64,000 nucleotides of DNA from TPA_inf: Saccharomyces (taxonomy: Eukaryota): the NCBI GenBank assembly GCA_000146045.2, contig BK006935.2, positions 166,219 to 230,218 of the forward strand. Reading direction: 5' to 3'. A program made the translations under genes and the position numbers. This document shows, piece by piece, positions 26,401 through 56,945 of the stretch. Numbering within the stretch: position 1 is the stretch's first letter; each line of letters starts with the position of its first letter. A model generated the notes under the pieces. The model ran no database searches and had not been told where the DNA came from. It saw only the letters and a list, made by a program, of their open reading frames with translations.

Positions 26401-29400
26401 ATGGAACAACCTGATCTATCGTCTGTGGCCATCAGTAAGCCGCTGCTGAAGTTGAAACTTCTCGACGCCCTTCGCCAGGGAAGTTTCCCCAACCTACAAG
26501 ATCTCCTAAAGAAACAATTCCAGCCGCTAGACGACCCAAACGTCCAACAAGTGCTCCATCTCATGCTCCACTATGCCGTGCAAGTCGCCCCCATGGCTGT
26601 CATAAAGGAAATCGTCCATCATTGGGTCTCAACTACAAACACCACTTTTCTAAACATCCATCTTGATCTAAACGAACGGGACTCCAACGGCAACACCCCA
26701 TTGCACATCGCCGCCTACCAGTCCCGCGGTGATATCGTAGCCTTCCTCCTGGACCAACCAACCATCAACGACTGCGTGCTCAACAACTCCCACTTGCAGG
26801 CCATCGAAATGTGCAAGAACCTAAACATCGCGCAGATGATGCAGGTGAAACGCTCCACATACGTTGCAGAGACCGCCCAGGAATTCAGAACAGCTTTTAA
26901 CAACAGGGACTTCGGCCACCTAGAATCTATCCTCTCCAGCCCTCGAAACGCAGAACTGCTCGACATCAACGGTATGGACCCGGAGACTGGCGATACCGTT
27001 CTGCACGAATTCGTCAAGAAAAGAGACGTCATCATGTGCCGTTGGTTGCTTGAACACGGTGCTGACCCCTTCAAGAGAGACCGCAAGGGCAAACTGCCCA
27101 TCGAGCTCGTTAGGAAAGTCAATGAAAACGACACCGCCACCAACACCAAGATCGCCATCGACATCGAACTGAAAAAACTATTGGAAAGGGCCACCAGGGA
27201 GCAAAGTGTCATCGACGTCACAAACAACAACTTGCACGAGGCCCCCACTTACAAAGGCTACCTGAAAAAATGGACCAACTTCGCTCAAGGCTACAAATTG
27301 CGTTGGTTCATCCTTAGTAGCGATGGGAAACTATCCTACTACATCGATCAGGCCGACACTAAGAATGCCTGCAGGGGCTCCCTAAACATGTCTTCGTGCT
27401 CTCTGCATTTGGATTCGTCTGAAAAGTTGAAATTCGAAATTATCGGCGGTAACAACGGTGTTATCAGGTGGCATTTAAAGGGGAACCACCCCATCGAGAC
27501 AAATAGATGGGTTTGGGCCATCCAGGGCGCCATAAGATACGCAAAGGACAGAGAAATTTTGCTGCACAATGGCCCCTATTCGCCTTCTCTGGCCTTAAGC
27601 CATGGCTTGTCATCCAAAGTGTCCAATAAAGAAAACTTGCATGCAACTTCAAAACGGTTGACCAAGAGCCCGCATCTGTCCAAATCCACACTGACACAAA
27701 ACGATCACGATAATGACGATGACAGCACTAACAACAACAACAACAAAAGTAATAATGATTATGACGATAATAATAATAATAATAATAATGACGATGATGA
27801 TTATGATGATGATGATGAAAGTAGACCCCTCATAGAACCATTACCGTTGATTTCATCCAGAAGCCAAAGCTTAAGCGAAATCACTCCCGGTCCACATTCT
27901 AGGAAGTCTACAGTCTCGTCTACAAGGGCAGCCGATATACCATCAGATGATGAGGGTTACTCTGAGGACGATTCTGATGACGACGGTAACTCCTCTTACA
28001 CAATGGAAAACGGCGGTGAAAACGATGGCGACGAAGATCTAAATGCCATTTATGGTCCCTATATTCAAAAACTACACATGCTACAAAGATCCATTTCCAT
28101 CGAGTTGGCATCTTTGAACGAATTGCTGCAAGATAAACAACAACACGATGAGTACTGGAACACCGTCAACACTTCTATTGAAACCGTCAGCGAATTTTTC
28201 GACAAATTAAATCGGTTGACCTCTCAAAGGGAAAAAAGAATGATTGCCCAAATGACCAAGCAACGGGATGTTAACAATGTTTGGATTCAATCGGTAAAAG
28301 ATCTGGAAATGGAACTGGTTGATAAAGACGAAAAATTGGTTGCCTTGGATAAAGAACGGAAAAATCTGAAAAAAATGCTTCAAAAAAAATTGAACAATCA
28401 ACCACAGGTTGAAACTGAGGCTAATGAAGAATCCGATGATGCAAATTCAATGATAAAAGGATCCCAAGAATCAACAAATACCCTTGAGGAAATCGTAAAA
28501 TTTATCGAAGCAACAAAGGAAAGTGATGAGGATTCTGACGCCGACGAATTTTTCGACGCAGAAGAAGCTGCTTCCGACAAAAAAGCCAATGATTCGGAAG
28601 ACTTAACCACAAACAAGGAGACTCCAGCTAATGCGAAACCACAAGAAGAAGCTCCTGAAGACGAGAGCCTTATTGTGATCAGTTCTCCACAGGTGGAAAA
28701 GAAGAACCAACTATTAAAAGAGGGATCATTCGTCGGATATGAAGACCCAGTGAGAACCAAACTGGCTTTAGACGAAGATAATCGTCCCAAGATTGGTCTC
28801 TGGTCTGTTTTAAAGTCTATGGTCGGTCAAGACTTAACCAAACTAACTCTACCGGTATCGTTCAATGAGCCAACATCCTTACTACAGAGAGTATCTGAAG
28901 ATATTGAGTATTCTCATATTCTTGACCAAGCTGCCACTTTTGAAGACTCCTCTTTAAGAATGCTATATGTAGCTGCCTTTACTGCATCAATGTACGCATC
29001 TACCACTAACAGAGTGTCTAAACCATTCAACCCCTTACTCGGTGAAACTTTTGAATATGCCAGAACTGATGGTCAGTACCGATTCTTCACCGAACAAGTC
29101 TCTCACCACCCACCTATCTCTGCTACTTGGACAGAATCGCCCAAATGGGATTTTTACGGTGAATGTAATGTTGATTCGTCATTCAATGGGCGCACGTTCG
29201 CCGTGCAACATTTAGGATTATGGTACATTACTATCCGGCCTGATCATAATATTAGTGTTCCCGAGGAAACTTATTCCTGGAAAAAACCAAATAACACTGT
29301 TATCGGTATTTTAATGGGGAAACCACAAGTAGACAACAGTGGGGACGTCAAAGTCACAAACCATACCACAGGCGACTATTGTATGCTGCATTACAAAGCC

Positions 29401-29967
29401 CATGGCTGGACCTCAGCCGGTGCATATGAAGTCAGAGGTGAAGTATTCAACAAGGACGATAAAAAATTATGGGTTCTTGGTGGGCATTGGAATGATTCCA
29501 TTTACGGGAAAAAAGTAACTGCTAGAGGCGGAGAACTGACATTAGACAGAATAAAAACGGCAAATTCTGCCACGGGAGGACCAAAACTAGATGGGTCTAA
29601 GTTTCTGATATGGAAAGCAAATGAAAGGCCTTCAGTGCCATTTAATTTAACGTCGTTTGCATTGACTTTGAATGCTTTGCCACCCCACTTGATACCATAT
29701 TTAGCACCCACAGATAGTCGTTTAAGGCCCGATCAAAGGGCTATGGAAAATGGTGAATACGATAAAGCTGCCGCGGAAAAGCATCGTGTTGAAGTAAAAC
29801 AAAGGGCAGCAAAAAAAGAAAGGGAACAAAAAGGAGAAGAATACAGACCTAAGTGGTTTGTCCAGGAGGAGCACCCCGTTACCAAAAGTCTATACTGGAA
29901 ATTTAATGGAGAGTATTGGAACAAAAGAAAAAATCATGACTTTAAAGATTGTGCTGATATTTTCTAA
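26401..29967 (+). CDS. SWH1: Oxysterol-binding protein homolog with ankyrin repeats, PH domain and OSBP-related domain, 1188 aa
   Basis: N-terminal ankyrin repeats, PH-like region (YKGYLKKWTNFAQGYKLRWFILSSDGKLSYY), an Asn/Asp low-complexity tract, and the OSBP signature EQVSHHPPISA in the C-terminal domain. Confidence 0.93.
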   Translation: MEQPDLSSVAISKPLLKLKLLDALRQGSFPNLQDLLKKQFQPLDDPNVQQVLHLMLHYAVQVAPMAVIKEIVHHWVSTTNTTFLNIHLDLNERDSNGNTPLHIAAYQSRGDIVAFLLDQPTINDCVLNNSHLQAIEMCKNLNIAQMMQVKRSTYVAETAQEFRTAFNNRDFGHLESILSSPRNAELLDINGMDPETGDTVLHEFVKKRDVIMCRWLLEHGADPFKRDRKGKLPIELVRKVNENDTATNTKIAIDIELKKLLERATREQSVIDVTNNNLHEAPTYKGYLKKWTNFAQGYKLRWFILSSDGKLSYYIDQADTKNACRGSLNMSSCSLHLDSSEKLKFEIIGGNNGVIRWHLKGNHPIETNRWVWAIQGAIRYAKDREILLHNGPYSPSLALSHGLSSKVSNKENLHATSKRLTKSPHLSKSTLTQNDHDNDDDSTNNNNNKSNNDYDDNNNNNNNDDDDYDDDDESRPLIEPLPLISSRSQSLSEITPGPHSRKSTVSSTRAADIPSDDEGYSEDDSDDDGNSSYTMENGGENDGDEDLNAIYGPYIQKLHMLQRSISIELASLNELLQDKQQHDEYWNTVNTSIETVSEFFDKLNRLTSQREKRMIAQMTKQRDVNNVWIQSVKDLEMELVDKDEKLVALDKERKNLKKMLQKKLNNQPQVETEANEESDDANSMIKGSQESTNTLEEIVKFIEATKESDEDSDADEFFDAEEAASDKKANDSEDLTTNKETPANAKPQEEAPEDESLIVISSPQVEKKNQLLKEGSFVGYEDPVRTKLALDEDNRPKIGLWSVLKSMVGQDLTKLTLPVSFNEPTSLLQRVSEDIEYSHILDQAATFEDSSLRMLYVAAFTASMYASTTNRVSKPFNPLLGETFEYARTDGQYRFFTEQVSHHPPISATWTESPKWDFYGECNVDSSFNGRTFAVQHLGLWYITIRPDHNISVPEETYSWKKPNNTVIGILMGKPQVDNSGDVKVTNHTTGDYCMLHYKAHGWTSAGAYEVRGEVFNKDDKKLWVLGGHWNDSIYGKKVTARGGELTLDRIKTANSATGGPKLDGSKFLIWKANERPSVPFNLTSFALTLNALPPHLIPYLAPTDSRLRPDQRAMENGEYDKAAAEKHRVEVKQRAAKKEREQKGEEYRPKWFVQEEHPVTKSLYWKFNGEYWNKRKNHDFKDCADIF

Positions 29968-32249
29968 GCTGTGCAATGTAGTCACAATAACACTCGTTCA
30001 TTTGTATCCATTGCGAATGCCGGTACATCGGAAAACAGGATAGGACCTATTTAATTATATAGTATGAAGTATTCATAACTTCTTGAGGCATCAATACATC
30101 ATATTCCATGAGCTGCGTGGCATTCATACTCATTGATTTAAAGGTTTTTTATTTTCATGGAAAAGATTAACCGGGCTGAACGAAATATATTAAAGATGCT
30201 AAAACTTATGCTTTCATTGACTTTCAATAGTGTCCACTAACCAAAAAAAAAAACTACTCTAACAAGGGATCCCCATGGATTCAAAGCCGATACCAAACAG
30301 ATATTACTCTGCATAGAATTCAAAATATTATCCATATAAAGATGGGAAAGAATTCCAAAAGGAAAATTCTGCTCTAGAAGGTCACAAAACTAGTAAGAAG
30401 TTGACCCCCCTGCCATTAAAAAACGTTTTTAACAGCTCTAGCAATATTCTAATTTCGAAAGTGCTCTCAAAAGAATTTATTCATTTGCGAAAAAAAGAAT
30501 ATCTCAAAATTTTCTCGATCACGTACAACATCGTAGTATTTAAAGGATTATTAAGTCAACGAATAATTTCCACAAGAAAGGTACCTCTAGTTTTGGTGAT
30601 GAAGCAAGACAATAACTGGCAAGGGCTCTCACTAAATATCAACCCCTTTCAAATAAAAAAAGGATCATGGCTGGCAGCGCCCACAACAATTAAACTCTGT
30701 TACTATCAAAAAACATTGAGCCCAAGAATGGAATAAAATTTTCACTACACCTCGGACATGGATTTGTACATGTCCTATTATCCTGTAATTTTGACATATA
30801 CTGATATGGACCTCTTGTTTCGTATAAATCGCTATTTATTTCCCCAGATAACTAAAGAAAATCCTTCAACCCAGCGTTCTATATTACTATATTCTCAACC
30901 CGCCGTTTTCCTGCTGTGCGATAATTCTCATTCAATACTACCATTTCAAACCTAGAAAAGGGTGTCTTTATTAAAACTGTAAGAAAATTTTATCATGAAC
31001 TCTGATGAAAAGTCTTCGGAAGATCAACTTTTTGATTTTTCAAAAATGAAAGAAACTGTTGTCTCCATTTATGGCCTCATATCTGAAGGAAATTCGTCTG
31101 CTATTAGTCATACCACTATCTTCTTCTTGAAGCTGCATTTCAAGGTTGATTAGGAAGCATCTAACAATCATTCGATAGGGAAAACAGAAAGGCCGTTACA
31201 GTTTTTTAAAAATATCAATATCAAGAGAAAGAACTAGGGATATTGCAAAATCAAAACTTCTGATATTTGGTTTTACGTGAAAATTACCAACACTTAAACG
31301 TTAAAATTTCAAACTATCTACTGAAATATAAATTTTCAGTCAAAGAGATGAAACGATTATTTTCTTGAGTAATTCGTTGTCACAATTTAACAGAAAATTA
31401 CTGTTTTTTTCAAGTAGTTCACAAAGATACTCAAACTAAGATCATGGAGACGTCGGCAAGCAATTGATTGTTAGTGATTATCAAAACTCATTAGCTTCGG
31501 TAAAACTACATAGATTGAAAATCAGTAGTAACATACAACATGGTTTCCATGAGATTACAAACCGGCCAACCTAATGCTTTCAAAAATTCTTTGCTTACTG
31601 ATTCACGGTGGCCAAGAAGCATATAAATCTGTACTTTGCAGTAAAAAACAGATGGTATTGCTCATTCCCAGCGATTGCCAAATACGATTCATAACAGATT
31701 GACTTATCTTTTTCGAAAGCTCTATCATATGGCTTTGAGTAATAAGGTGAGATTTTTTTGGTGATGAAAATAAATACGGTGCCTTGATGCAAAATTTTTA
31801 GCCACAAACCTCTCTTCAGTCCCACATGATTCACCTGATTACGACTCACTATTTCATCTGTTCCATAAATCTCGGCTTTTTATATACAGAACATTAGACG
31901 ACGGGAAGAGAAAAACGTCAGTATAACCCACTTTTGTTCGTAAAAAAAGGTTATTCACTTCTACTCCGTACTAATCAATGACTTTAATGGTGAAACCATG
32001 ATGAGGAGAGTAACACGATGTAATTGTCATAAACTAATATTATCCCATATTAGTTTACTGACGGCTACAAGTGAGAATATATACTTTAAGAGTGTAACCA
32101 TACCAGTAATTGGGTTCCAAACAAGTTTGTGAGGCGCGTGTGCTGAAAGTAAAAAAAACTTACCTTAATAACGCAATTTCTGGCGAGGTTAAAATATTAA
32201 ATATAAAAAGCCTTCCAAGTAATTTTGCCCACTAAAATGTAACACAAAG

Positions 32250-32700
32250 CTCCACTGGTTCTCGGCTTCTTGTTCTTTCAAAAGGATCTTCAAATCCGCT
32301 TCCACTTAAGCAGCCTTCTGCTACGACTTCTTCTGAGACACTCGGTTTCGCGCGGGCACTTCTGCCCACCAAAAAAGTTTATTTTCCGGAAAGCTTATTT
32401 CTAAATAAACTTCTGAGGAATTTTTTTTCCGCAAATTTCCATGCAACGTCGAACTCTCAAATTCTCACGAGATTATTTGACTTGCTTTCCTTTCCCCCTT
32501 TTTCCACGCACTACGTCAATGCAAGTGATCCGCTTTTGAAGAAGCAAAAAATACTTCTTTCAGCTCGTACCGGCATTTTTATTATTTGTCAAAACTGGCG
32601 TTTGGAAACCAGCTCTTCACTTTTTCTTCGTGGTTTCTTCGTGGTTTTTTCGAGAGTTTTGTTTAAGCCCCTTTTATGGATGCATGAGAAAAAAAAAAAG
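32250..32700 (+). repeat. Copy A of a ~400-bp dispersed element (YAR060C-like sequence), ~4.5 kb upstream of FLO1
   Basis: Shares with copy C blocks such as GGCT(C)CTTCTTGTTCT..AAAGGATCTTCAAATCCGCTTCCAC.TA..AGC..T.CTGCTACGACTTCTTCTGA, CTCACGAGATT.TTTGAC and GAAGAAGCAAAA, in the same orientation. Confidence 0.7.
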
Positions 32701-33128
32701 GTTTGCTACAACCATCTCAGGTCTCTTGAAGGATAGTTCGAAGCTCGCCTGACCGTCTTTGGGTGACCAGGCTTGGTTTTCAGTTTTTTTTAGCTCATTG
32801 AGATATGTGATCCCGTTCCTAGATATTATGAGGGAATTTTATATATCAAATTGATTTTCACCGCGAATTCCAGAAGGATGGGCAAAAGAGGGCTTGTTGG
32901 CGTGGGAGGATGGTCGCGGCTGAAAATTTTCACCACGAGCAGTTTCTTGTGAGACATCCTAATACTTTTGCATTTTTACCAAGCAGTCGTCCGTAGCAAA
33001 GCATAGGTTAGTAATAACAATGTGCAAATAAAAAACTATCTTACAGGCAATTATTTTGTGGCAAAGCAAGGTCCATGTTTTCTTGAAAGGTAAGAAGTGG
33101 CTTTGGGACAGCTCATATAGACAGATTT

Positions 33129-33490
33129 AAGTTTTTGATCTGAGAAGCGAATGAAATGTCTTCAGTATCATTCAATTTAGCATCCTTTTCATTGACTTTG
33201 AATGTTTTACCGCCCCAATCAATGCCATAATTAGCACCCCATGGATGGTCGTTTAAGGCCTGAAGAGTTATGGAGCATTGTGAATAAAATAAAAAATTAC
33301 TTAGGAAAAGCATCGTGTTGAAGTAAAGCAAAGAGCAGCAAAAAATAAATGGAGTAAATATGAGAGAAATACAGATCAGAATGGTTCGTTCAAGAGTCCA
33401 TACTATAAACCCGATGGTGACTTTTGCACAAAAAAACAATGGTTTCGAAGATTGTGCTCATATTTTCTGAGCTCAACATATGCTCGCAAA
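33129..33490 (+). pseudogene. Degenerate direct duplicate of the last ~390 bp of SWH1 (C-terminal ~120 codons plus ~20 bp of 3' UTR)
   Basis: 33129-33490 aligns with 29599-29990, for example aagtttttgatctgagaagcgaatgaaatgtcttcagt against aagtttctgatatggaaagcaaatgaaaggccttcagt, and ...ggtcgtttaaggcc...aagcatcgtgttgaagtaaa.caaag.gcagcaaaaaa...gattgtgct.atattttct.agct. The frame is broken by a stop in the fifth codon. Confidence 0.75.
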
Positions 33491-36400
33491 AACACCTACT
33501 AATTGATGTTTACCAAGAACGCGAGTACAGTCATATATAGATGTAGTAGAGTTGAGATATTCTGAATCGGAAGTACGATATTTCAATTCCTATATTGCAA
33601 AAATTTATATATTTGGAGCTTCTTGAAAGAAAAAGTGTCCAACATCCTGCATGAAGTTTGATCACTTTAGCTGGTCCCATTCGAAGAACCTTTTTTTTTT
33701 TTTTTTTTTTTGAGATTCTTCATATTCTGTTATTAAATTTTTAGACTTTAATTTTTACTTTCTATGTAACGTTCACTCTTACCCTAAATATTAAACTATT
33801 TGATAAAATATTACACTGAAAGGTGTTACAACTTTTCCTAGACCAACCTTAATATAAACGTTACGATATAAAATAAACAGTAATTTTAAGATTCCATTGT
33901 TGAATGTGACACGTAACTCTAGGCCATACCTGGTTTAGTATTTTTTAAAAGAACTCTTGCTACAGCATATTTTACGTTTGCATAAAAATAAAAGAAAAGC
34001 TTCCTTATGAAACACTGGTTAAGAAAAGAAAATGGAGTGGTTACATACTCCAAAATAAATTACTCTTAATATCTGTTTATCCAATGAGGAGCAGATCTCA
34101 AAGATAATCAGACTTGTTATTGAAGCAATTGAAGTAAGTCTTCCATTGAAATCACGCTAATTATTAAGCAATATGGTGGATTAAACAACTCTGACGGGAC
34201 CGTACTACTTGATGAAAAGTTATATACAATATTGAATAACAGCATAATGCTGTATGATGTTGAGCGGAAGATTGTATAAAAATGTCCTTTTCTAAAATCA
34301 TGAAAAACGAACCCTTTAAAGTAATTTTGTAGCGAAATTTAACCTCACGAGTTCATGATCATAACTCGTTATCATTTTTGTAATATTGAATCGGTCTCTA
34401 TAGAGCCTCATGAGAAGATAGAGGACCCGAAATAATTCTCCCTTCAAACATTATGGCCAATAAGTGTCAGGAAGTGAAGCATTGACATGACAGCAGCACA
34501 TTAAAACTCTATTGAATATAAATACGATCCACGACATGTCGTTTACAAAGCGCTAAAAACTCATGAGCCAACTATTCCCTAAATTTCCAAGATCTATCAT
34601 ATATTTTTCCCTAATTTTCCAAGAGGAACCTCCATAAAATAATGCAGAAAAACATTTGTTTGATCTATTTTAAAAGGCATATCGCATGTTATAGTGAATC
34701 TGAAGATTGCTTCTCTCGTCAGTATTAATGCACTATATTACGTTTCAAATAATTCGTAGATTGTCTCAAGTTTTCAGTATATTTGCCTTCATGACCCACC
34801 GGTCCTCTTCCCTCAAGTGCTCAACGATGGGAGCTTCAGAAAAATCCAGCAGCATAGTTGAGTTCTGATTCTCTCCTTGGTAGTTTTTTCCTTTGGTGAT
34901 TTCGGATTCATAATGAAAATGTTTCGTATATTCTATGACTAAAGTTGTTATTGTTGTAAGTATTTCTGCTTCCTCTTGCAACAATTCCGCTCCCACTTAT
35001 AATGCACCGAGGTGAATTGGTCATCCTTACGAAAATACCCAGATAGAAATGGAGTAGTTGCGTGATCGTTTACTGCATCTTTTGCGCCTTTTAATCAATC
35101 TTGACGTGGATATCTTGTTTTGCTTGAACCACCACCTGTATTGCTGGTATAAATCACCATATTAACCATCGTTTTCAATCAACGCAACTTTTAGTGTATT
35201 GTCTGCAACATCTGATTTCCCTCTGGTAAGTCACCTAATCTAAAATCTCTATTTTGAATCCACGGAGACATACGTTTGAAAGATATAAAAGAGTTCATTG
35301 AAAAGTCTAGCGTCACAACTGACATTAAAATACTTAAATATGAACCAAAATTTTTTGGCTTTTATTTTCAATGCAATCATTATCTGCCTATACAGGAAAC
35401 GCTTTATTTGGCTCAATAATATGATCATGTTTGTCTGAAGTTGGCAATAAAAGAAACTAAGAAGAGCCACTAAACTTATTTTATGATATGGGAAACACAG
35501 AAAACACTCCAAAAATTTTGGTACAAGAACCTGAAAATAGAACAAAGAAAGAGGCGAGGTTTGGTACATCTAATTTACGTGACCTAGACGTTGCTCACCT
35601 TATGTTAATAGCTTATCAGAATTACAAGTAATTACTTGTAGGAACATCCTCTACTAGTGAATATGAAAGAGCAGAGGTTAGCTCCGTCTCAACCAATTTT
35701 GTACAAGTCGTTGAAAAGGACGGCTCTACTGTAGACAGGTCGATTCAAAGTCTGGTCTCAAAATAGAAGGTAAAATATTATTGAACAAAAGACCACTAAA
35801 AGGCTATGGTATGTCCAATAAGATGCAAAATAGACATTTCACTCGCTAATCGTTAGTGGGATTATATCTTACTATACTCCTTATCTCATTGAATGGCACT
35901 AGTCGATCGAGGAACAAAAAAGGATCGAACCGATTAGCACGGATTTCCTTAAGTAATTTAAATTACCAAAGAAGATCCACATCAGCAGTCGAATGTTCAA
36001 GATGCCGTAAGTTTAAAATCTTTCGTATCTTTCCCCGATCCTGTCTTTCATCAATGAACTTGAATATCAAGAGTGAAAAAAACTCATATGGCTTCTCTTG
36101 AAGAGTTAGAAAGATAGGCACATGCCAATTGTGTGCATAGCACTTACTACTCAACGATTTCACAACCTAGCATAATACGCGAAAAAAAAAGTGCATTTAT
36201 TTAGGTAAGTCTCATTACCTAAACGCCAGTTTGTTTCACGTAATTGGTAACGATGAGGGAACCGCAGTAGAAAAAACTTTCATTCACAAACGATTAAAGT
36301 GTTATGCTAGCCAGTTTCAGGCTTTTTGTTTTATGCAAGAGAACATTCGACTAGATGTCCAGTTAAGTGTGCGTCACTTTTCCTACGGTGCCTCGCACAT

Positions 36401-37184
36401 GAATGTTATCCGGCGCACGATACTTATCACCGAAAAACCTTATTCTACGGAAAACCTTATTTACATTAAAGTTGGAAAAATTTCCTCTTTTTCCTAATAA
36501 GGTGGAGCTTTTGGCTTCCAGTATGCTTTCACGGAATTATTTCTCATGTACATTTAGCTCCATTTCCAGTGCCTCCGATAGGGAGGCATCATGGTACTAC
36601 CGTGACGGAGAATACGTAGGCTGACTTTTTCGTCAGTTTGTTGTCCGTTTACAAAATTGGTGAATGAATTCTAGCCTTCCTCTGCTCATTAATTGCCCTC
36701 ACAAGAATTTGGAAGTGCGTAGAACAGGTAAAAGATTGTACTACAGAGGTATTGTGGAACCTTCTACAGTACTTCGGAATACACCTAAAAGGTTGTTGGA
36801 TGCTAAATTTAGCAAAAGTCTTTTTTAGCTCACTATTAGGCTTGTTAAAGTCTGAAATTGTTGAAAGGCACTCAAAAAGATAAATCAACAATCAGCATTA
36901 ACGGCACAGTTGAAAGAGTCACCCACTTGAAATTAGCTCGGTTATCAAATATAATTATCTCTGGTAAAGAGCTCTGCAGCAGGGTTAATCTATTCGCATA
37001 CTTACGCTGTAGGAACATTTTATTATTAGGATCCGACTACTGCCTACATATTTATTCGGAAGGCATGATGTCGAAAATTTTTGAGCTTATAAAAGGAACA
37101 TATTTCACTCTTGCTCGTTTGATGTAAGCTCTCTTCCGGGTTCTTATTTTTAATTCTTGTCACCAGTAAACAGAACATCCAAAA

Positions 37185-40100
37185 ATGACAATGCCTCATC
37201 GCTATATGTTTTTGGCAGTCTTTACACTTCTGGCACTAACTAGTGTGGCCTCAGGAGCCACAGAGGCGTGCTTACCAGCAGGCCAGAGGAAAAGTGGGAT
37301 GAATATAAATTTTTACCAGTATTCATTGAAAGATTCCTCCACATATTCGAATGCAGCATATATGGCTTATGGATATGCCTCAAAAACCAAACTAGGTTCT
37401 GTCGGAGGACAAACTGATATCTCGATTGATTATAATATTCCCTGTGTTAGTTCATCAGGCACATTTCCTTGTCCTCAAGAAGATTCCTATGGAAACTGGG
37501 GATGCAAAGGAATGGGTGCTTGTTCTAATAGTCAAGGAATTGCATACTGGAGTACTGATTTATTTGGTTTCTATACTACCCCAACAAACGTAACCCTAGA
37601 AATGACAGGTTATTTTTTACCACCACAGACGGGTTCTTACACATTCAAGTTTGCTACAGTTGACGACTCTGCAATTCTATCAGTAGGTGGTGCAACCGCG
37701 TTCAACTGTTGTGCTCAACAGCAACCGCCGATCACATCAACGAACTTTACCATTGACGGTATCAAGCCATGGGGTGGAAGTTTGCCACCTAATATCGAAG
37801 GAACCGTCTATATGTACGCTGGCTACTATTATCCAATGAAGGTTGTTTACTCGAACGCTGTTTCTTGGGGTACACTTCCAATTAGTGTGACACTTCCAGA
37901 TGGTACCACTGTAAGTGATGACTTCGAAGGGTACGTCTATTCCTTTGACGATGACCTAAGTCAATCTAACTGTACTGTCCCTGACCCTTCAAATTATGCT
38001 GTCAGTACCACTACAACTACAACGGAACCATGGACCGGTACTTTCACTTCTACATCTACTGAAATGACCACCGTCACCGGTACCAACGGCGTTCCAACTG
38101 ACGAAACCGTCATTGTCATCAGAACTCCAACAACTGCTAGCACCATCATAACTACAACTGAGCCATGGAACAGCACTTTTACCTCTACTTCTACCGAATT
38201 GACCACAGTCACTGGCACCAATGGTGTACGAACTGACGAAACCATCATTGTAATCAGAACACCAACAACAGCCACTACTGCCATAACTACAACTGAGCCA
38301 TGGAACAGCACTTTTACCTCTACTTCTACCGAATTGACCACAGTCACCGGTACCAATGGTTTGCCAACTGATGAGACCATCATTGTCATCAGAACACCAA
38401 CAACAGCCACTACTGCCATGACTACAACTCAGCCATGGAACGACACTTTTACCTCTACTTCTACCGAATTGACCACAGTCACCGGTACCAATGGTTTGCC
38501 AACTGATGAGACCATCATTGTCATCAGAACACCAACAACAGCCACTACTGCCATGACTACAACTCAGCCATGGAACGACACTTTTACCTCTACTTCTACC
38601 GAATTGACCACAGTCACCGGTACCAATGGTTTGCCAACTGATGAGACCATCATTGTCATCAGAACACCAACAACAGCCACTACTGCCATGACTACAACTC
38701 AGCCATGGAACGACACTTTTACCTCTACATCCACTGAAATCACCACCGTCACCGGTACCAATGGTTTGCCAACTGATGAGACCATCATTGTCATCAGAAC
38801 ACCAACAACAGCCACTACTGCCATGACTACACCTCAGCCATGGAACGACACTTTTACCTCTACATCCACTGAAATGACCACCGTCACCGGTACCAACGGT
38901 TTGCCAACTGATGAAACCATCATTGTCATCAGAACACCAACAACAGCCACTACTGCCATAACTACAACTGAGCCATGGAACAGCACTTTTACCTCTACAT
39001 CCACTGAAATGACCACCGTCACCGGTACCAACGGTTTGCCAACTGATGAAACCATCATTGTCATCAGAACACCAACAACAGCCACTACTGCCATAACTAC
39101 AACTCAGCCATGGAACGACACTTTTACCTCTACATCCACTGAAATGACCACCGTCACCGGTACCAACGGTTTGCCAACTGATGAAACCATCATTGTCATC
39201 AGAACACCAACAACAGCCACTACTGCCATGACTACAACTCAGCCATGGAACGACACTTTTACCTCTACATCCACTGAAATCACCACCGTCACCGGTACCA
39301 CCGGTTTGCCAACTGATGAGACCATCATTGTCATCAGAACACCAACAACAGCCACTACTGCCATGACTACAACTCAGCCATGGAACGACACTTTTACCTC
39401 TACATCCACTGAAATGACCACCGTCACCGGTACCAACGGCGTTCCAACTGACGAAACCGTCATTGTCATCAGAACTCCAACTAGTGAAGGTCTAATCAGC
39501 ACCACCACTGAACCATGGACTGGTACTTTCACCTCTACATCCACTGAGATGACCACCGTCACCGGTACTAACGGTCAACCAACTGACGAAACCGTGATTG
39601 TTATCAGAACTCCAACCAGTGAAGGTTTGGTTACAACCACCACTGAACCATGGACTGGTACTTTTACTTCTACATCTACTGAAATGACCACCATTACTGG
39701 AACCAACGGCGTTCCAACTGACGAAACCGTCATTGTCATCAGAACTCCAACCAGTGAAGGTCTAATCAGCACCACCACTGAACCATGGACTGGTACTTTT
39801 ACTTCTACATCTACTGAAATGACCACCATTACTGGAACCAATGGTCAACCAACTGACGAAACCGTTATTGTTATCAGAACTCCAACTAGTGAAGGTCTAA
39901 TCAGCACTACAACGGAACCATGGACCGGTACTTTCACTTCTACATCTACTGAAATGACGCACGTCACCGGTACCAACGGCGTTCCAACTGACGAAACCGT
40001 CATTGTCATCAGAACTCCAACCAGTGAAGGTCTAATCAGCACCACCACTGAACCATGGACTGGCACTTTCACTTCGACTTCCACTGAGGTTACCACCATC

Positions 40101-41798
40101 ACTGGAACCAACGGTCAACCAACTGACGAAACTGTGATTGTTATCAGAACTCCAACCAGTGAAGGTCTAATCAGCACCACCACTGAACCATGGACTGGTA
40201 CTTTCACTTCTACATCTACTGAAATGACCACCGTCACCGGTACTAACGGTCAACCAACTGACGAAACCGTGATTGTTATCAGAACTCCAACCAGTGAAGG
40301 TTTGGTTACAACCACCACTGAACCATGGACTGGTACTTTTACTTCGACTTCCACTGAAATGTCTACTGTCACTGGAACCAATGGCTTGCCAACTGATGAA
40401 ACTGTCATTGTTGTCAAAACTCCAACTACTGCCATCTCATCCAGTTTGTCATCATCATCTTCAGGACAAATCACCAGCTCTATCACGTCTTCGCGTCCAA
40501 TTATTACCCCATTCTATCCTAGCAATGGAACTTCTGTGATTTCTTCCTCAGTAATTTCTTCCTCAGTCACTTCTTCTCTATTCACTTCTTCTCCAGTCAT
40601 TTCTTCCTCAGTCATTTCTTCTTCTACAACAACCTCCACTTCTATATTTTCTGAATCATCTAAATCATCCGTCATTCCAACCAGTAGTTCCACCTCTGGT
40701 TCTTCTGAGAGCGAAACGAGTTCAGCTGGTTCTGTCTCTTCTTCCTCTTTTATCTCTTCTGAATCATCAAAATCTCCTACATATTCTTCTTCATCATTAC
40801 CACTTGTTACCAGTGCGACAACAAGCCAGGAAACTGCTTCTTCATTACCACCTGCTACCACTACAAAAACGAGCGAACAAACCACTTTGGTTACCGTGAC
40901 ATCCTGCGAGTCTCATGTGTGCACTGAATCCATCTCCCCTGCGATTGTTTCCACAGCTACTGTTACTGTTAGCGGCGTCACAACAGAGTATACCACATGG
41001 TGCCCTATTTCTACTACAGAGACAACAAAGCAAACCAAAGGGACAACAGAGCAAACCACAGAAACAACAAAACAAACCACGGTAGTTACAATTTCTTCTT
41101 GTGAATCTGACGTATGCTCTAAGACTGCTTCTCCAGCCATTGTATCTACAAGCACTGCTACTATTAACGGCGTTACTACAGAATACACAACATGGTGTCC
41201 TATTTCCACCACAGAATCGAGGCAACAAACAACGCTAGTTACTGTTACTTCCTGCGAATCTGGTGTGTGTTCCGAAACTGCTTCACCTGCCATTGTTTCG
41301 ACGGCCACGGCTACTGTGAATGATGTTGTTACGGTCTATCCTACATGGAGGCCACAGACTGCGAATGAAGAGTCTGTCAGCTCTAAAATGAACAGTGCTA
41401 CCGGTGAGACAACAACCAATACTTTAGCTGCTGAAACGACTACCAATACTGTAGCTGCTGAGACGATTACCAATACTGGAGCTGCTGAGACGAAAACAGT
41501 AGTCACCTCTTCGCTTTCAAGATCTAATCACGCTGAAACACAGACGGCTTCCGCGACCGATGTGATTGGTCACAGCAGTAGTGTTGTTTCTGTATCCGAA
41601 ACTGGCAACACCAAGAGTCTAACAAGTTCCGGGTTGAGTACTATGTCGCAACAGCCTCGTAGCACACCAGCAAGCAGCATGGTAGGATATAGTACAGCTT
41701 CTTTAGAAATTTCAACGTATGCTGGCAGTGCCAACAGCTTACTGGCCGGTAGTGGTTTAAGTGTCTTCATTGCGTCCTTATTGCTGGCAATTATTTAA
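37185..41798 (+). CDS. FLO1: Lectin-like flocculin, 1537 aa: N-terminal PA14/mannose-binding domain, 18 x 45-aa tandem repeats, Ser/Thr-rich stalk, GPI signal
   Basis: Signal peptide, PA14-type domain (...[29 protein letters not shown]...[34 protein letters not shown]...), a massive tandem array, and a C-terminal hydrophobic GPI-attachment tail. Confidence 0.95.
38016..40446 (+). repeat. 18 tandem copies of a 135-bp (45-aa) repeat inside FLO1, in near-identical sub-blocks
   Basis: Unit ~[44 protein letters not shown]. Two subtypes ([18 protein letters not shown] and [18 protein letters not shown]) each repeat several times, with long runs of 100% identical nucleotides. Confidence 0.9.
40890..41290 (+). 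repeat. Three imperfect ~50-aa repeats in the FLO1 C-terminal stalk ([46 protein letters not shown])
   Basis: Visible in the translation between residues ~1235 and ~1370. Ser-rich 21-bp-type repeats precede them at about 40540-40640. Confidence 0.8.
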
Positions 41799-44769
41799 TA
41801 AAATTCGCGTTCTTTTTACGTATCTGTGTATCTTTTCTTTGCTAATTATACGCTGACATGAATTATTTTTTAACTGTTTCTCCTCCATACTTTCAAATAT
41901 TCAAATTGACTAAATGATAATTCTTGCGCTTCTTATTTTGAAAAAGTAGATATGTGTATCATAAAGAAAACGTTATTATTATTGTCTTAGGCAACAAAAA
42001 TCCATGAAAAGAATTTTACCGTTATCGATATCATTGTATTTATTTTATTTATTTATTCAATTTTTTTTTTTTTGGTTTATATCCTGCAAACAACACTTCG
42101 AATTCAATTCGATATTTCATAAGTTACAACTAACACTTATAGAAACCGATGTATGAGTACTTATTATTAACGAGGAAAAATGCCCTATTTTCTTTAGCAA
42201 TTAATGAACCATCGCCAACTTTTGCTTTAACAATTATTGCCATTTTCAGCAGTACTAACGTAAGATCTAGTGTGGTTCGCTTAGGATGTTTTCGAGTAGA
42301 AATCTGCTGCACATGCCACACGCAGTACTTGAAACTTGAAATAATGGTGATAATTAGTTATTTAAAGTATGTTAATCTTCCTTGTTCTTTTATATTTATT
42401 TCGAATTCTTTTGCACTAGTATTTAAAATATCAGCAGAGGTGTAAAAGTGCACCAAAATTATTGTAAAACTACTTGCCCTAAAATTGATACTTCATACTT
42501 GACATATTCAAAAGGGGTCCAAGTATAGATGCATCAAAAAAAAAAATTATCCGATGATGAGCAAATGGTAGCTTTTCGTTCCCAGGAAGTGTAGTAGTTC
42601 CATGAAGTCTAATGAGACTTTGGAAAAAGGTTTGTCACGAGCACCTAACTATTGTATTTTGGAATTTTGATAAACTTCAAAACGGGAACGAAGTGTTAAA
42701 CTTAGATGCGGTTGATTTAAGCTTTAAAAGAGGAAAATAATGACTGATGATAAGAAGTCAACAACGATTCAAAGCAGGTGAATTTCCATTACGTTTCGCT
42801 TTTCAATTGAAAAAAATTTGGTGGTTATTCATTTCTTGCTTGACCTCTTTACTTTTTATACTTCTGTGATGAGAAGCAAGTTCGAGGATTTTACGATAAA
42901 GCCTACTGGTTATATTTGTATAAATTAGAACGTTGTCCTTATTTCTCTTTTCGAACAGTATCAAAATAAAGTTTTTGATTAGGGCCAGATTCTCTTCAAG
43001 GAAGAGATACCTCACGTCTGTAATATCTAAGAGCTAATGTTTCGATCGAACTTTCCTTTGCTTTTTTTCTGGATCTCATAATGTCCCACTGTATGTATGT
43101 GCCCTCGCACAGCTTTGCTCATCATAGACATTAATCATTGGTTGTACGATAAAAATATCGCAAAAATTATTCTAACGTTCAGATTAGATTCCGGCCATAT
43201 TTCTGACATTTGTTTTATTAATAAAAATTTGGCGAATGTTTTGATAACTTGATAACTGCTGATATTTCATTGTTGAAAAGGCATGATATTAGATGCACAA
43301 AGTATATTATAACTTATTATCAGAGATATAGGAACAAAAAAAAAGGGAAATTCATATCTATATGTGAAAATACCATTATTTCCTCTTCTATTTAATATAC
43401 TGTCCTTAATTTTCATATTACATTATCAACTTTTGCATTTCAGTGTCCATTAAATCTTGGGACCATTTTCTCAATCTTCATGTCGTGTTTTCACACCGTA
43501 TATAATATACTGGTAATATAAGTACTAGTCGATAGATCGCAGTTGAGTCTTATCCCAACAGTTAATGATTCACTGTGCTTTCTGTTGCTGTAGAATTTCT
43601 GAGGCATTGTCGCTCTCTTCTATGTGATGCTACAACGGAACTAGGCTTCTTATATATCGTGGTCCTACAAGATCTTGGTATCTCGTTTGCTTACTTTGAA
43701 GCTTCACTGATATATAGTATTTAAGCCACTTTCATGTTCATGGATAATCGTAATTGTACTACGCTGGTACCAGTTATGAACCCTATCAAATCATCATTGA
43801 ACACTGCTATTTTTAACTAATCAAGATGTGTATGCGGCGTACTTTATAATTTCACGACACTATTGAAAGCAAACTAAAAATCAAGTAAATACCTATCCAA
43901 GTTGCGGGCTCTGGATTTATGTGGCCTTAAATTTTCGACCTATGGTTCGCTATTCAATATGAGAAAACCAAAATTAGGTACAAGTACTGATTACGTCCGT
44001 GATTCGAAAAGCAGCGTTGAAAGATTACAAGATTTTGCGTGTCCAGGCCGACACTTAACTTTAAGGTCTCGACTTAGTAACATGAGTTGCCAAAAGTTTT
44101 TTTCTCCTATCTGAATATGGGGAACCGGAATTTGTCTTTGACCTGACTTTCAAATTGTTGCATATGTAAAAAAAAACAGAAGAAATATGATCTTCTTCTT
44201 CTAGCGATGCAAAAGGATTCATTACAAATCGTCGCAAAGGCCGACAAGTTGCAGTATATTCACATTGCTTATTTGAAGTATGTTTGTATACACATCGATA
44301 GTATTCATTAACACCACAACTGCTGTGTATACTATGTCAAACAGCATAATAAAGCCCGTCATTTTTGTACCCGCTCATTTCCAATAGGCATCTAAACTTA
44401 CAAATGTGGTACACTACTTCGAATTCATTAATCGATATTGAATGCTAAAAGTCTGCGATTTCTTCCTCAACGTTCAAAAATCTCATCCAAGGCATAATCC
44501 CACATATTGAAGATCGCTACCAATTGTTACGGGCGAACTGAGGTTTTGGAAATGAGCTTGTACTTAGTAAATTTCTCTTTGCTTGCATCTTTTTCTTCCA
44601 TGCCAAAAAATAAAAGATACTCATTTTAAAAGCGCAGCCATATTGACTAAGTAAGTAATCATAATACTATGAGTAATTTTTGAGTACTGTGCTCATTTAC
44701 TAGCTGCTTTTCTGAGAAAGATCCTCGATAATCAATTCCAGGTTAGTGGGGCCCTTCTACGGCTTCTTC

Positions 44770-45010
44770 TAACCAATTGTTCCCCGTGAGTTGCTTTCTC
44801 TGAAAACCTTATTATACATTAGAGTTATAAGAAAATTTTCTTTTTCCCGTAGATTAACCTGCAGTGCCGAACTTCTAGATGTCACACCAGACCGTTTGAC
44901 ACCGCCATTTTCCTTCCTTTTCGGAAAAATGTGCCGATAAATGGTAAGACGCGACGCCACTGCTACGAATATTACGCTTATGATGAAGCAAAAGGAAAAA
45001 GCAAGTTCCC
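44770..45010 (+). repeat. Copy B (partial) of the dispersed YAR060C-like element, 3 kb downstream of FLO1
   Basis: tttcccgtagattaacctgcagtgccgaa...cgccgataaatggtaagacgcgacg...tgatgaagcaaaaggaaaaag aligns with copy C tttcccgtagattgacttgcagcgtcaaaa...cgccgataaagaagtagtacaacag...tgatgaagcaaaagaggaagag. The minus-strand ORF 44769-44960 is a YAR060C-like fragment (LQVNLREKENFL against LQVNLRERRNFL). Confidence 0.7.
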
Positions 45011-45549
45011 CTTAAATTCGTATAACTGTTTCATCAATCTTTAGTTCTGGCATTTGAAAGTTAATTAAACTTTTCTTCGTGGTTTCTACAGGAGTTCTGC
45101 ATGTGCGTAATTCAAAGCCTGTGAAGGAAAAAGTATTGTCCTAAACAACGGTCGTAGAATACGTCAACTGTAGTTTAAAATATTTTCTGGCTCTACTCGG
45201 TGCGATAGGTCTGGCTCTTTTCTATTTACTTTTGTTTGGAGTTGTTGAGGCCGATACCCGTCTAGATGTAAATATGAAATAACAGTTCGAGGTTTTATTA
45301 CGAGAATGAAAAGGGTAATGGATTGGAGCATGTGTAAATGTCAATAGCAGAAAAAATTTACCGCAAATTGTTTCGTAGTCTTATCTTCATCGGACACTCA
45401 AGGGTTGCATAATTTTTACCCAAAGGAACAGTATACTTTTTTGATAAAAAAATCTTGTTACCTATACAGTATTGCAAGCATTTTCAGAAACTCGTCTTTT
45501 GAGTTCTAAATGCATCATACAACAACAACAACAATTTCTTATTACTGTG

Positions 45550-51274: not shown

Positions 51275-51440
51275 CTCTTTTTCCTTCCTTTTTCTTTCTT
51301 TTCCTGCGCACGCCGATAAAGAAGTAGTACAACAGACAACGTCAAAATGATCCTCTTGTGATGAAGCAAAAGAGGAAGAGTATACTCCTTTTCCGCTTGT
51401 ACAAATATTTTTTTTGATAATAAAATTTGGCACTTCAGAG
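51040..51440 (+). repeat. Copy C of the dispersed ~400-bp element, ~500 bp upstream of the YAR061W/YAR062W FLO pseudogene
   Basis: See copies A and B for the alignments. Same orientation in all three. Confidence 0.7.

Positions 51441-56908: not shown

Positions 56909-56945
<37 letters not shown>
56909..56945. repeat. Uninterrupted poly(dT) tract of ~37 nt
   Basis: Direct read, in the intergenic region 3' of the cell-wall gene. Confidence 0.95.

What the first reader, a model, noticed from the sequence alone, without database searches (positions are those of the whole stretch)
33129..33490. Degenerate relic of the SWH1 3' end lying 3.2 kb downstream of SWH1, immediately after repeat copy A
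About 360 bp align collinearly with the last ~390 bp of SWH1, covering C-terminal codons, the stop and the first ~20 bp of the 3' UTR. I estimate roughly 70-75% identity. The frame is dead. A partial tandem duplication of SWH1, or the remnant of a once-adjacent OSH paralog, is not something I know to be described. Its placement between copy A and FLO1 suggests the long FLO1 upstream interval was assembled by insertion and rearrangement.
Basis: seen in the sequence. Interest (0 to 1): 0.52.

Follow-up and report, generated by a model that had tools for sequence, protein, structure and literature searches.

The report
Dead SWH1 tail fragment, already catalogued
This is a real but non-functional leftover copy of the last fifth of the yeast gene SWH1, lying 3 kb downstream of the gene; it was already listed in a 2010 pseudogene catalogue (SACE0Ap7), so it is ordinary.

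Summary
Window 33118-33396 aligns collinearly, on the same strand, with SWH1 29588-29868 at 76% identity over 284 bp (E 3e-46). The similarity continues through the stop codon into the 3' flank.

The relic is larger than reported. It runs from about 32996 to about 33567 and corresponds to SWH1 codons ~973-1188 plus at least 68 bp of 3' flank, broken by deletions, stops and frameshifts.

It derives from SWH1, not OSH2 (76% against 62% identity; 100% bootstrap with Saccharomyces SWH1).

Orthologous copies sit at the collinear position in S. paradoxus, S. mikatae and a deeply diverged wild S. cerevisiae haplotype (HLJ1). They share derived deletions and a TAA>TGA change. None is detectable within 10 kb downstream of SWH1 in S. 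kudriavzevii/S. arboricola or S. uvarum. The duplication is therefore old: it predates the S. mikatae split and decays neutrally.

Its 5' end abuts a complete FLO-promoter-like module ("copy A"), and a second such module sits in register upstream of FLO1. That order fits a ~4 kb tandem duplication from SWH1 codon ~973 to about -145 of FLO1. This step is inferred, not proven.

The relic is already listed as pseudogene SACE0Ap7 (best match YAR042W; 8 stops, 5 frameshifts) in Lafontaine & Dujon 2010. Low interest.

The parts
26401..29967 (+). Parent gene SWH1/OSH1 (YAR042W), 1188 codons. The segment that was copied starts near 29317 (codon ~973) and runs past the stop to at least ~30035.
   Evidence: ORF list. 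The translation is identical to S288C NP_009421.3. Pfam Oxysterol_BP positions 170-368 of 368 cover codons 973-1188.
32101..32995 (+). 'Copy A': a complete FLO-gene upstream (promoter-like) module, which ends where the relic begins.
   Evidence: A profile built from the four orthologous copies hits window 50887-51712 (E 2e-78, 210 bp before the FLO pseudogene ATG at 51922). It also hits 44707-45376 (E 9e-39), 36311-36489 (E 2e-7) and S. uvarum L009 16741-17139 (470 bp before the FLO ATG).
32996..33117 (+). Weakly recognisable 5' part of the relic (SWH1 codons ~973-1062). It carries a ~90 bp deletion shared with the S. paradoxus and HLJ1 copies and a further 44 bp loss specific to S288C.
   Evidence: 12-sequence alignment. 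Block identities are 60% to SWH1 and 83-89% to the S. paradoxus relic. Profile hit 32996-33080, E 6e-9. The HLJ1 and S. mikatae copies match SWH1 residues 976-995 / 973-1188 by tblastn.
33118..33470 (+). Core of the relic: SWH1 codons ~1063-1188 and the stop position (TGA at 33468-33470, against TAA in SWH1). It has 4 bp, 20 bp and 5 bp deletions, a 2 bp insertion, stops and frameshifts.
   Evidence: blastn 76% over 284 bp, E 3e-46. Alignments A1 and A2. tblastn E 7e-16 with internal stops.
33471..33567 (+). 3'-flank (3'-UTR) homology of the relic. It is firm to ~33537 and weaker to ~33567.
   Evidence: 33431-33537 matches the S. paradoxus SWH1 3' end and flank, L025 13510-13616 (67%, E 4e-10), which is 67 bp past the stop. 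The profile hit extends to 33567.
36311..36489 (+). Diverged second FLO-upstream module (A'), in register with the FLO1 start codon (37185).
   Evidence: Profile positions 164-338 match, E 1.8e-7. Extrapolating to the module end gives ~37042, which is 143 bp before the FLO1 ATG. The corresponding gaps are 134 bp at the FLO pseudogene and ~190 bp in S. uvarum.
37185..41798 (+). FLO1 (YAR050W), the gene on the far side of the interval.
   Evidence: ORF list.

Best explanation
The region is a non-functional, 5'-truncated, DNA-level duplicate (gene relic) of the 3' end of SWH1/OSH1.

What was copied (shown): the last ~216 codons, i.e. the C-terminal half of the oxysterol-binding domain, plus the stop codon and roughly 70-140 bp of 3' flank. 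The copy lies in direct orientation a few kb downstream of SWH1.

When (shown by presence and absence; the possibility of loss in other lineages is inferred): the copy arose in the common ancestor of S. cerevisiae, S. paradoxus and S. mikatae. This was after the whole-genome duplication and most likely after the S. kudriavzevii lineage split off.

What happened since (shown): with no promoter-linked start codon and only half a domain, it has decayed neutrally. S288C has multiple stops and frameshifts and several deletions. In S. mikatae, ~420 bp of the relic has been overwritten by ectopic gene conversion from the intact SWH1.

How it most likely arose (inferred): a single ~4 kb tandem duplication. 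The left breakpoint was at SWH1 codon ~973. The right breakpoint was ~145 bp upstream of the FLO start codon. This converts 'SWH1 - spacer - FLO promoter module - FLO' into 'SWH1 - spacer - module A - SWH1 tail - spacer' - module A' - FLO1', which is the observed order.

Later change (shown): in the S288C-type haplotype, a 4.4 kb segment flanked by two A repeats, still present in S. paradoxus and HLJ1, is missing. That is why the relic lies only 3.2 kb from SWH1 in S288C.
For: Homology and direction:
- blastn 76% over 284 bp, E 3e-46, same strand, crossing the stop.
- Shuffle control: score 136 against 12.6 +/- 1.4.

Parent is SWH1:
- Identity is 76.1% to S. cerevisiae SWH1 and 73.6-77.5% to SWH1 of five other Saccharomyces species.
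- Identity is 61.8% to OSH2 and 60.6% to a more distant SWH1-like gene.
- Among 120 OSH1/OSH2 homologues, the best single tblastn match is S. cerevisiae SWH1.
- NJ bootstrap is 100% for relics plus Saccharomyces SWH1, excluding OSH2.

Dead frame: stops and frame changes. The catalogue counts 8 stops and 5 frameshifts.

Single old origin:
- There are collinear copies in S. paradoxus (L025 ~20734-21346), S. mikatae (L024 20128-20808) and HLJ1 (L012 21177-21665).
- All four share upstream flank sequence and the same 5' limit at codon ~973.
- The S288C, S. paradoxus and HLJ1 copies share a 4 bp deletion, TAA>TGA, a ~90 bp deletion and a 1 bp UTR deletion.
- The S288C and S. paradoxus copies also share a 20 bp deletion and a 2 bp insertion.
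- The relic shares none of the 7 S. cerevisiae-specific SWH1 changes and only 1 of the 7 S. paradoxus-specific ones.

Absence elsewhere: no second hit within 10 kb downstream of SWH1 in S. kudriavzevii, S. arboricola or S. uvarum by blastn, tblastn or profile search.

Gene conversion in S. mikatae: 98-99% identity to its own SWH1 over ~420 bp, against 59-65% in the 5' part.

Neutral decay: S288C and S. paradoxus are 88.5% identical over 33118-34758, which spans most of the relic and 1.2 kb beyond it. The neighbouring blocks are 83.6% and 91.5%.

Tandem model:
- Module A abuts the relic, and module A' is in register with the FLO1 ATG.
- The two unit lengths are similar, 3678 and ~4047 bp.
- S. 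uvarum shows the simple SWH1 - spacer - A - FLO arrangement.

Catalogue: SACE0Ap7, chromosome A 199239-199682 W, best match YAR042W. The coordinate offset was checked with the FLO pseudogene.
Against: - The two spacers that a tandem duplication should have made paralogous (29968-32100 and 33570-36311) show no detectable similarity by blastn, nhmmer or a four-species profile. The tandem step therefore rests on element order and spacing alone.
- Module A' next to FLO1 is far more diverged than the orphan module A, which is not what simple expectation predicts.
- The branching point of the relic within Saccharomyces SWH1 is unresolved by sequence. Informative sites split 8/6/4, and bootstraps for the interior nodes are 16-34%. 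The dating therefore rests on presence and absence.
- S. kudriavzevii and S. arboricola are not independent witnesses for absence. They share ~94% identity from SWH1 outward.
Confidence: 0.88

Rival explanations
1. The relic is what remains of a complete tandem SWH1 paralogue, or of a larger duplicated block SWH1...FLO. Its 5' four-fifths, and any intervening FLO copy, were then removed by one deletion before the S. mikatae split.
For: The final structure is identical to that of a direct partial duplication. The stop-to-stop spacing in S288C (about 3500 bp) is close to the SWH1 length (3567 bp). All four relic copies share the same 5' limit, so truncation predates their divergence.
Against: It needs two events instead of one. 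tblastn of full-length SWH1 against 29968-33600 and against the HLJ1 interval finds no collinear trace of codons 1-972. The 5' limit abuts a FLO promoter module directly.
Confidence: 0.1
2. The relic is a retro-copied (cDNA-derived), 5'-truncated fragment of SWH1 mRNA that was captured at a chromosome break in the FLO1 upstream region.
For: The copy covers only the 3' end of the transcript and includes 3'-UTR sequence, as 5'-truncated cDNAs do.
Against: No A-run follows the 3' homology; the nearest homopolymer is a T21 run at 33691-33711 on the same strand. No Ty LTR termini were found in the SWH1-FLO1 interval. The flanking arrangement A - relic - ... - A' is explained by a DNA-level duplication but not by fragment capture. 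Lafontaine & Dujon argue that yeast truncated pseudogenes generally arise by DNA deletion rather than incomplete cDNA. SWH1 has no intron, so the intron test is unavailable.
Confidence: 0.02
3. The relic is the remnant of a different OSH paralogue, either the whole-genome-duplication partner OSH2 or an older family member that once sat next to SWH1.
For: OSH2 also matches the region significantly (61.8% over 225 bp, E 2e-11).
Against: The relic is 14 points closer to SWH1 than to OSH2, and SWH1 and OSH2 are themselves 67.7% identical here. NJ bootstrap is 100% for relics plus Saccharomyces SWH1, excluding OSH2 and a more distant SWH1-like gene. The 3'-UTR similarity is to SWH1 orthologues only.
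Confidence: 0.01
4. The region is a functional element kept by selection, for example a promoter-driven non-coding transcript or short peptide upstream of FLO1, rather than neutral debris.
For: A complete FLO promoter-like module lies directly upstream. S. mikatae has an open 96-codon frame with a strong Oxysterol_BP match. The relic has survived since before the S. mikatae split.
Against: Each lineage has accumulated its own deletions: HLJ1 lacks ~190 bp and S288C lacks 44 bp. S. cerevisiae-S. paradoxus identity in the block spanning the relic is no higher than in the flanks. The S. mikatae frame is explained by recent gene conversion. There is no Rfam match. The fragment encodes only half of a lipid-binding domain.
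Confidence: 0.03

Closest known systems
Pseudogene SACE0Ap7 in Table S1 of Lafontaine & Dujon 2010, BMC Genomics 11:260 (PMC2876123)
   Same: It is the same object. The catalogue gives chromosome A (I) 199239-199682, Watson strand, best match YAR042W, relative length 0.11, amino-acid divergence 0.46, nucleotide divergence 0.36, 8 stops and 5 frameshifts. With the offset checked on the FLO pseudogene, this maps to window ~33021-33472.
   Different: The catalogue gives only coordinates and counts. As far as I could read, it does not report the following, which were worked out here: the orthologues in S. paradoxus and S. mikatae, the S. mikatae gene conversion, the further 5' extension to ~32996, the 3'-flank homology, or the junction with a FLO promoter module.
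'One CDS + one relic' tandem gene arrays (Despons et al. 2010, BMC Genomics 11:56, PMC2822764)
   Same: An intact gene followed in the same orientation by a degenerate copy of itself, interpreted as birth-and-death evolution of tandem duplicates.
   Different: That survey states the 1CDS-relic class is absent from S288C, and its supplementary files do not list YAR042W. Here only the last fifth of the gene was copied, and 3 kb of unrelated sequence separates gene and relic.
OSH2 (YDL019C), the whole-genome-duplication partner of SWH1
   Same: It has the same domain architecture and a homologous C-terminal region, and it matches the relic detectably.
   Different: Identity is only 62% against 76% for SWH1, there is no 3'-UTR similarity, and it falls outside the relic + SWH1 clade. 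It is not the source.
Processed (retro-copied) pseudogenes
   Same: A 5'-truncated copy that includes 3'-UTR sequence.
   Different: There is no poly(A) tail, no Ty sequence at the junctions, and the flanking duplicated promoter modules point to a DNA-level event.

Membership tests
Duplicated (non-processed) pseudogene / gene relic of SWH1 | Statistically significant, collinear nucleotide similarity to the parent gene | tested here: met
   76% over 284 bp, E 3e-46. The local alignment score is 136 against 12.6 +/- 1.4 for shuffles.
Duplicated (non-processed) pseudogene / gene relic of SWH1 | Disabling mutations: no intact reading frame in the parental frame | tested here: met
   A single-frame tblastn alignment carries 5 stops, and parts match only in other frames. 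There are several indels that are not multiples of 3. The catalogue counts 8 stops and 5 frameshifts.
Duplicated (non-processed) pseudogene / gene relic of SWH1 | Closer to SWH1 than to any other family member | tested here: met
   SWH1 76%, OSH2 62%. Bootstrap is 100% with Saccharomyces SWH1. Of 120 homologues, the best single match is S. cerevisiae SWH1. OSH3-7 were not separately aligned.
Duplicated (non-processed) pseudogene / gene relic of SWH1 | DNA-level rather than RNA-mediated origin (no poly(A), homology or structure beyond the transcript, introns retained) | tested here: inconclusive
   There is no A-run after the 3' homology and no LTR termini nearby, and duplicated promoter modules flank the unit. 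However, SWH1 has no intron, and its poly(A) site could not be mapped with these tools.
Duplicated (non-processed) pseudogene / gene relic of SWH1 | Orthologous copies at the syntenic position in sister species, with shared disabling mutations | tested here: met
   S. paradoxus, S. mikatae and the HLJ1 haplotype all have copies, with shared deletions, TGA stop, flank and 5' limit.
Tandem segmental duplication product | Both copies of the unit contain the same ordered elements (SWH1 tail, spacer, FLO promoter module) | tested here: inconclusive
   The SWH1 tail and the promoter module are each present twice, in the right order and with similar unit lengths (3678 and ~4047 bp). The two spacers show no detectable homology.
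Oxysterol-binding protein (Pfam PF01237) coding gene | A complete, open ORD domain | tested here: not met
   The copied segment covers only profile positions 170-368 of 368 and is interrupted by stops in S288C. Only the gene-converted S. mikatae copy keeps an open 96-codon tail (positions 290-368).
Catalogued pseudogene SACE0Ap7 | Same chromosome, strand, coordinates and parent gene | tested here: met
   199239-199682 W, best match YAR042W. The offset of 166218 was checked on the FLO pseudogene: window 51922 corresponds to 218140, against the catalogue's 218132.

The most novel reading that the evidence does not exclude
The relic marks the junction of an ancient ~4 kb tandem duplication that left a complete, still well-conserved FLO promoter module (32101-32995) pointing into the SWH1 tail. 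If that orphan promoter still fires under FLO8 control, it would produce a non-coding or chimeric transcript. That transcript would run across the relic towards FLO1 and could modulate FLO1 by transcriptional interference, in the manner known for the ICR1/PWR1 transcripts upstream of FLO11 (from my own knowledge).
Probability: 0.04. Interest if true: 0.5.

Novelty: already known. Interest (0 to 1): 0.12.

Why it matters
It matters little. The relic is one of about 80 catalogued S. cerevisiae pseudogenes, in a chromosome end known to be rich in them.

The added value here is descriptive:
- It dates the duplication to before the S. mikatae split.
- It shows an example of a dead gene fragment being partly 'repaired' by gene conversion from its parent in S. 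mikatae.
- It identifies the relic as a marker of how the unusually long FLO1 upstream interval was built, with duplicated FLO promoter modules and a 4.4 kb presence/absence polymorphism.

These points could help people who study FLO1 regulation or chromosome I subtelomere evolution. They open no new question.

Tried and rejected
1. Is the whole 29968-33118 interval a decayed full-length SWH1 copy? tblastn of full SWH1 against it and against the HLJ1 interval found nothing 5' of codon ~973.
2. Homology between the two spacers predicted by the tandem model: blastn with word size 7, nhmmer, and a four-species profile all found nothing.
3. Resolving the branching point of the relic by site patterns and NJ bootstrap: the result was unresolved.
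4. Summed tblastn bit scores over 120 homologues were noisy because of frameshifts and were not used for ranking. Only single-HSP scores were used.
5. Searching the protein database with the antisense ORF (33113-33439) to fish out other species returned only one S. cerevisiae cluster. The sister species were reached through YAT1 instead.
It worked after obtaining an id through the cluster look-up.
7. The 4.4 kb extra segment of S. paradoxus/HLJ1 was tested as a possible FLO gene remnant. There was no tblastn similarity to FLO1, the S. uvarum FLO or the S. kudriavzevii neighbour, and no ORF of 100 codons or more.
8. An Rfam scan of 29900-37300 gave no match.
9. A search for Ty LTR termini found none in the interval.
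10. The G3 2017 FLO1/SWH1 QTL paper (PMC5345705) says nothing about the interval.

Full report
**Context.** The window carries a 1188-codon ORF at 26401-29967 and a 1537-codon ORF at 37185-41798. The first translates exactly to S. cerevisiae S288C Swh1p, NP_009421.3. The second is FLO1. From my memory of SGD coordinates (SWH1 192619-196185, FLO1 203403-208016, chromosome I 230218 bp), the window is chromosome I 166219-230218. I checked this offset of 166218 independently. The FLO1-like pseudogene in the window starts at 51922, which maps to 218140, and the published catalogue places it at 218132.

**Step 1: the observation.**
- blastn of 32900-33700 against the whole window gives a single strong non-self hit. 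It is 33118-33396 against 29588-29868, same strand, 76.1% over 284 columns, E 2.9e-46; E 3.6e-53 with scoring suited to diverged DNA.
- A second collinear piece, 33431-33495 against 29928-29993 (74%), crosses the SWH1 stop codon and continues ~25 bp (repeat family D1).
- A local alignment scores 136, against 12.6 +/- 1.4 for 300 base-shuffled copies.
- The parental frame is dead. One tblastn alignment spanning SWH1 residues 1056-1188 has five internal stops. A 13-residue stretch identical to SWH1 is readable only in another frame.
- The pairwise alignment shows 4, 20 and 5 bp deletions and a 2 bp insertion.

**Step 2: it is already catalogued.** Table S1 of Lafontaine & Dujon 2010 (PMC2876123) lists pseudogene SACE0Ap7. 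The entry reads: chromosome A 199239-199682, Watson strand, best match YAR042W, relative length 0.11, amino-acid divergence 0.46, nucleotide divergence 0.36, 8 in-frame stops, 5 frameshifts, and no sister pseudogene with the same pattern. With the checked offset, this is window ~33021-33472. A survey of tandem gene arrays from the same year states that the 'one CDS plus one relic' class is absent from S288C and does not list YAR042W. So the relic has been recorded as a pseudogene but not as a tandem array.

**Step 3: the parent is SWH1.**
- I fetched the OSH2 locus and SWH1 loci from other yeasts.
- The core of the relic is 76.1% identical to S. cerevisiae SWH1 and 77.5% to S. paradoxus SWH1. 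It is 72.4% identical to S. mikatae, 75.0% to S. kudriavzevii, 75.4% to S. arboricola and 73.6% to S. uvarum SWH1.
- It is only 61.8% identical to OSH2 and 60.6% to a more distant SWH1-like gene.
- In a neighbour-joining analysis of 390 columns, the relics group with all Saccharomyces SWH1 genes, to the exclusion of OSH2, in 100% of 500 bootstraps.

**Step 4: true extent and age.** Sister-species loci were reached through the neighbouring gene YAT1 and the cluster look-up.
- S. paradoxus CBS432 has the relic at the collinear position. S288C 32173-33121, 33118-34758 and 34758-35623 align with L025 19904-20860, 20896-22504 and 22686-23549 at 83.6, 88.5 and 91.5%.
- S. mikatae IFO1815 has it too. 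SWH1 residues 973-1188 match L024 20126-20665 in one frame, E 9e-68. The genome annotation there even calls a 74-residue ORF with an Oxysterol_BP hit.
- A wild Chinese S. cerevisiae, HLJ1, carries a much more decayed copy at L012 21177-21665.
- In a 12-sequence alignment, all four relics share the non-SWH1 sequence immediately upstream and the same 5' limit at SWH1 codon ~973.
- The S288C, S. paradoxus and HLJ1 copies share a 4 bp deletion, the TAA>TGA change, a ~90 bp deletion and a 1 bp deletion in the 3' UTR. S288C and S. paradoxus also share a 20 bp deletion and a 2 bp insertion.
- These shared derived states show a single origin, followed by a period of common decay.
- In the window, the relic therefore runs from ~32996 to at least 33537 and probably 33567.
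- The copied segment is Pfam Oxysterol_BP positions 170-368 of 368, i.e. half a domain.
- The relic shares none of the seven S. cerevisiae-specific SWH1 substitutions and only one of the seven S. paradoxus-specific ones. Scer+Spar SWH1 exclude the relics in 95% of bootstraps.
- No second copy is detectable within 10 kb downstream of SWH1 in S. kudriavzevii, S. arboricola or S. uvarum by blastn, tblastn or a profile search.
- S. kudriavzevii and S. arboricola count as one witness, because they are ~94% identical from SWH1 outward but 87% identical in YAT1.
- The simplest dating is an origin after the S. kudriavzevii split and before the S. mikatae split. The sequence tree itself does not resolve this node.

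**Step 5: fate.**
- The S288C-S. paradoxus block that spans most of the relic (33118-34758) is 88.5% identical; the neighbouring blocks are 83.6% and 91.5%. Within the relic, block identities are 83-96%. Different lineages have lost different pieces. All this fits neutral decay.
- In S. mikatae the relic is a mosaic. About 420 bp, from about codon 1080 to ~50 bp past the stop, is 98-99% identical to S. mikatae's own SWH1, while the 5' part is 59-65% identical. This indicates recent ectopic gene conversion from the parent gene, and it explains the open 96-codon frame there.
- Six S. cerevisiae contigs from public sequencing runs are collinear with S288C across 30252-37526 at 98.2-99.8%. The S288C arrangement is therefore common.

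**Step 6: how it arose.**
- A profile of the four orthologous copies hits window 50887-51712 (E 2e-78), which ends 210 bp before the ATG of the FLO pseudogene at 51922.
- It also hits 44707-45376 (E 9e-39) and 36311-36489 (E 2e-7).
- It hits just upstream of the FLO gene of S. uvarum (L009 16741-17139; ATG at 17612). It also hits the S. kudriavzevii and S. arboricola intervals.
- In S288C a complete module (32101-33001) ends where the relic begins.
- The weak module at 36311-36489 is in register with FLO1. Extrapolated to its end, it stops ~143 bp before the ATG.
- S. uvarum shows the simple order SWH1 - 3.3 kb - module - FLO, with no relic.
- The S288C order is SWH1 - spacer - A - SWH1 tail - spacer' - A' - FLO1. 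A single tandem duplication with breakpoints at SWH1 codon ~973 and about -145 of the FLO gene would produce exactly this order. The two units are 3678 and ~4047 bp.
- This step is an inference. The two spacers share no detectable similarity, although this interval evolves so fast that S288C and S. paradoxus are only ~65% identical in 31305-32504.
- A full-length tandem copy followed by a deletion would give the same end state and cannot be excluded. No trace of codons 1-972 remains.
- A cDNA origin is unlikely. There is no A-run after the 3' homology, there are no Ty LTR termini in the interval, and a cDNA origin would not explain the flanking modules.

**Step 7: later rearrangement.**
- S. 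paradoxus and HLJ1 carry two full A modules (L025 15039-15953 and 19828-20739; 82% identical over 336 bp). Between the end of the first module and the start of the second lies ~3.9 kb with no ORF of 100 codons or more and no FLO similarity.
- S288C has one module, and its left part matches both. S288C therefore lacks ~4.4 kb (one repeat plus the sequence between), most simply through recombination between the repeats.

**Comparison with what is known, and verdict.**
- The object is a member of the well-known class of duplicated, truncated pseudogenes (gene relics) that crowd yeast chromosome ends, and it is individually listed as SACE0Ap7.
- It is not a functional OSBP gene, not an OSH2 remnant, and not an RNA family member.
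- The antisense 108-codon ORF (33113-33439) appears in public data only as a 66-residue automatic gene call from S. cerevisiae sequencing runs (a cluster of 4 member sequences on 61 contigs). It has no homologues elsewhere. I treat it as a chance ORF.
- Novelty: already known. Interest: low.

Noticed in passing
window 32101-33001, 36311-36489, 44707-45376, 50887-51712; L009 16741-17139; L001 17514-17925; L011 18038-18728: An ~830-890 bp module recurs upstream of FLO1, of two FLO-like pseudogenes in the window, and of the S. uvarum FLO gene. It ends ~130-200 bp before the start codon. It looks like a conserved FLO-family promoter block, and one complete orphan copy has no gene behind it.
   Followed up: partly
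L025 15436-19904 and L012 16044-20348, against window ~32173-32500: S. paradoxus CBS432 and the wild S. cerevisiae HLJ1 carry ~4.4 kb that S288C lacks. It is flanked by two direct copies of the module, and S288C and six other S. cerevisiae contigs have a single copy. The extra segment has no long ORF and no FLO similarity, so its content is unexplained.
   Followed up: partly
L012 20348-23543 against window 32173-35395: HLJ1 is 96.5% identical to S288C up to ~32455 but only 60-76% identical from 32173 onward. That is more diverged than S. paradoxus is from S288C there (84-91%). This is a very deep haplotype, or an introgression from an unsampled lineage, in the FLO1 upstream region.
   Followed up: no
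window 30373-32504 against L025 13956-15436: The first 2 kb downstream of SWH1 is only ~65% identical between S. cerevisiae and S. paradoxus, with stretches that have no detectable match. SWH1 itself and the relic region are 84-91% identical.
   Followed up: no
L024 20378-20668 (S. mikatae IFO1815 chromosome I): About 420 bp of the S. mikatae copy of the relic is overwritten by gene conversion from its own SWH1 (98-99% identity). The copy now holds an open 96-codon frame, and the genome annotation calls a 74-residue 'gene' with an Oxysterol_BP domain there. This is probably an annotation artefact.
   Followed up: yes
L011 10019-23504 against L001 10019-23310: S. arboricola H-6 and S. kudriavzevii IFO1802 are 93.7-95% identical from SWH1 to the end of the fetched locus but 86.9% identical in the adjacent YAT1. 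This suggests exchange of the distal chromosome I end between these lineages, or an assembly mix-up.
   Followed up: no
L005 and L008 (unnamed yeast from public sequencing runs): In this species a 1330-residue SWH1-like gene follows ADE1-, KIN3-, CDC15- and YAT1-like genes. After it come THI20-, GPM-, peptidase M49- and ARG1-like genes, which in S. cerevisiae lie on chromosome XV (YOL055C-YOL058W; gene order from my own knowledge). SWH1 is therefore the last gene of conserved synteny on the right arm of Saccharomyces chromosome I, and everything beyond it is subtelomere-like.
   Followed up: no
window 33113-33439, minus strand: A 108-codon ORF (66 codons from the first ATG) lies antisense to the relic. 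It is called as a gene on 61 contigs from S. cerevisiae sequencing runs and has no homologue elsewhere. It is most likely a chance ORF.
   Followed up: yes
window 33691-33711: A run of 21 T lies ~125 bp after the end of the relic. Its only match in the window is a longer T run near 56909-56945.
   Followed up: no
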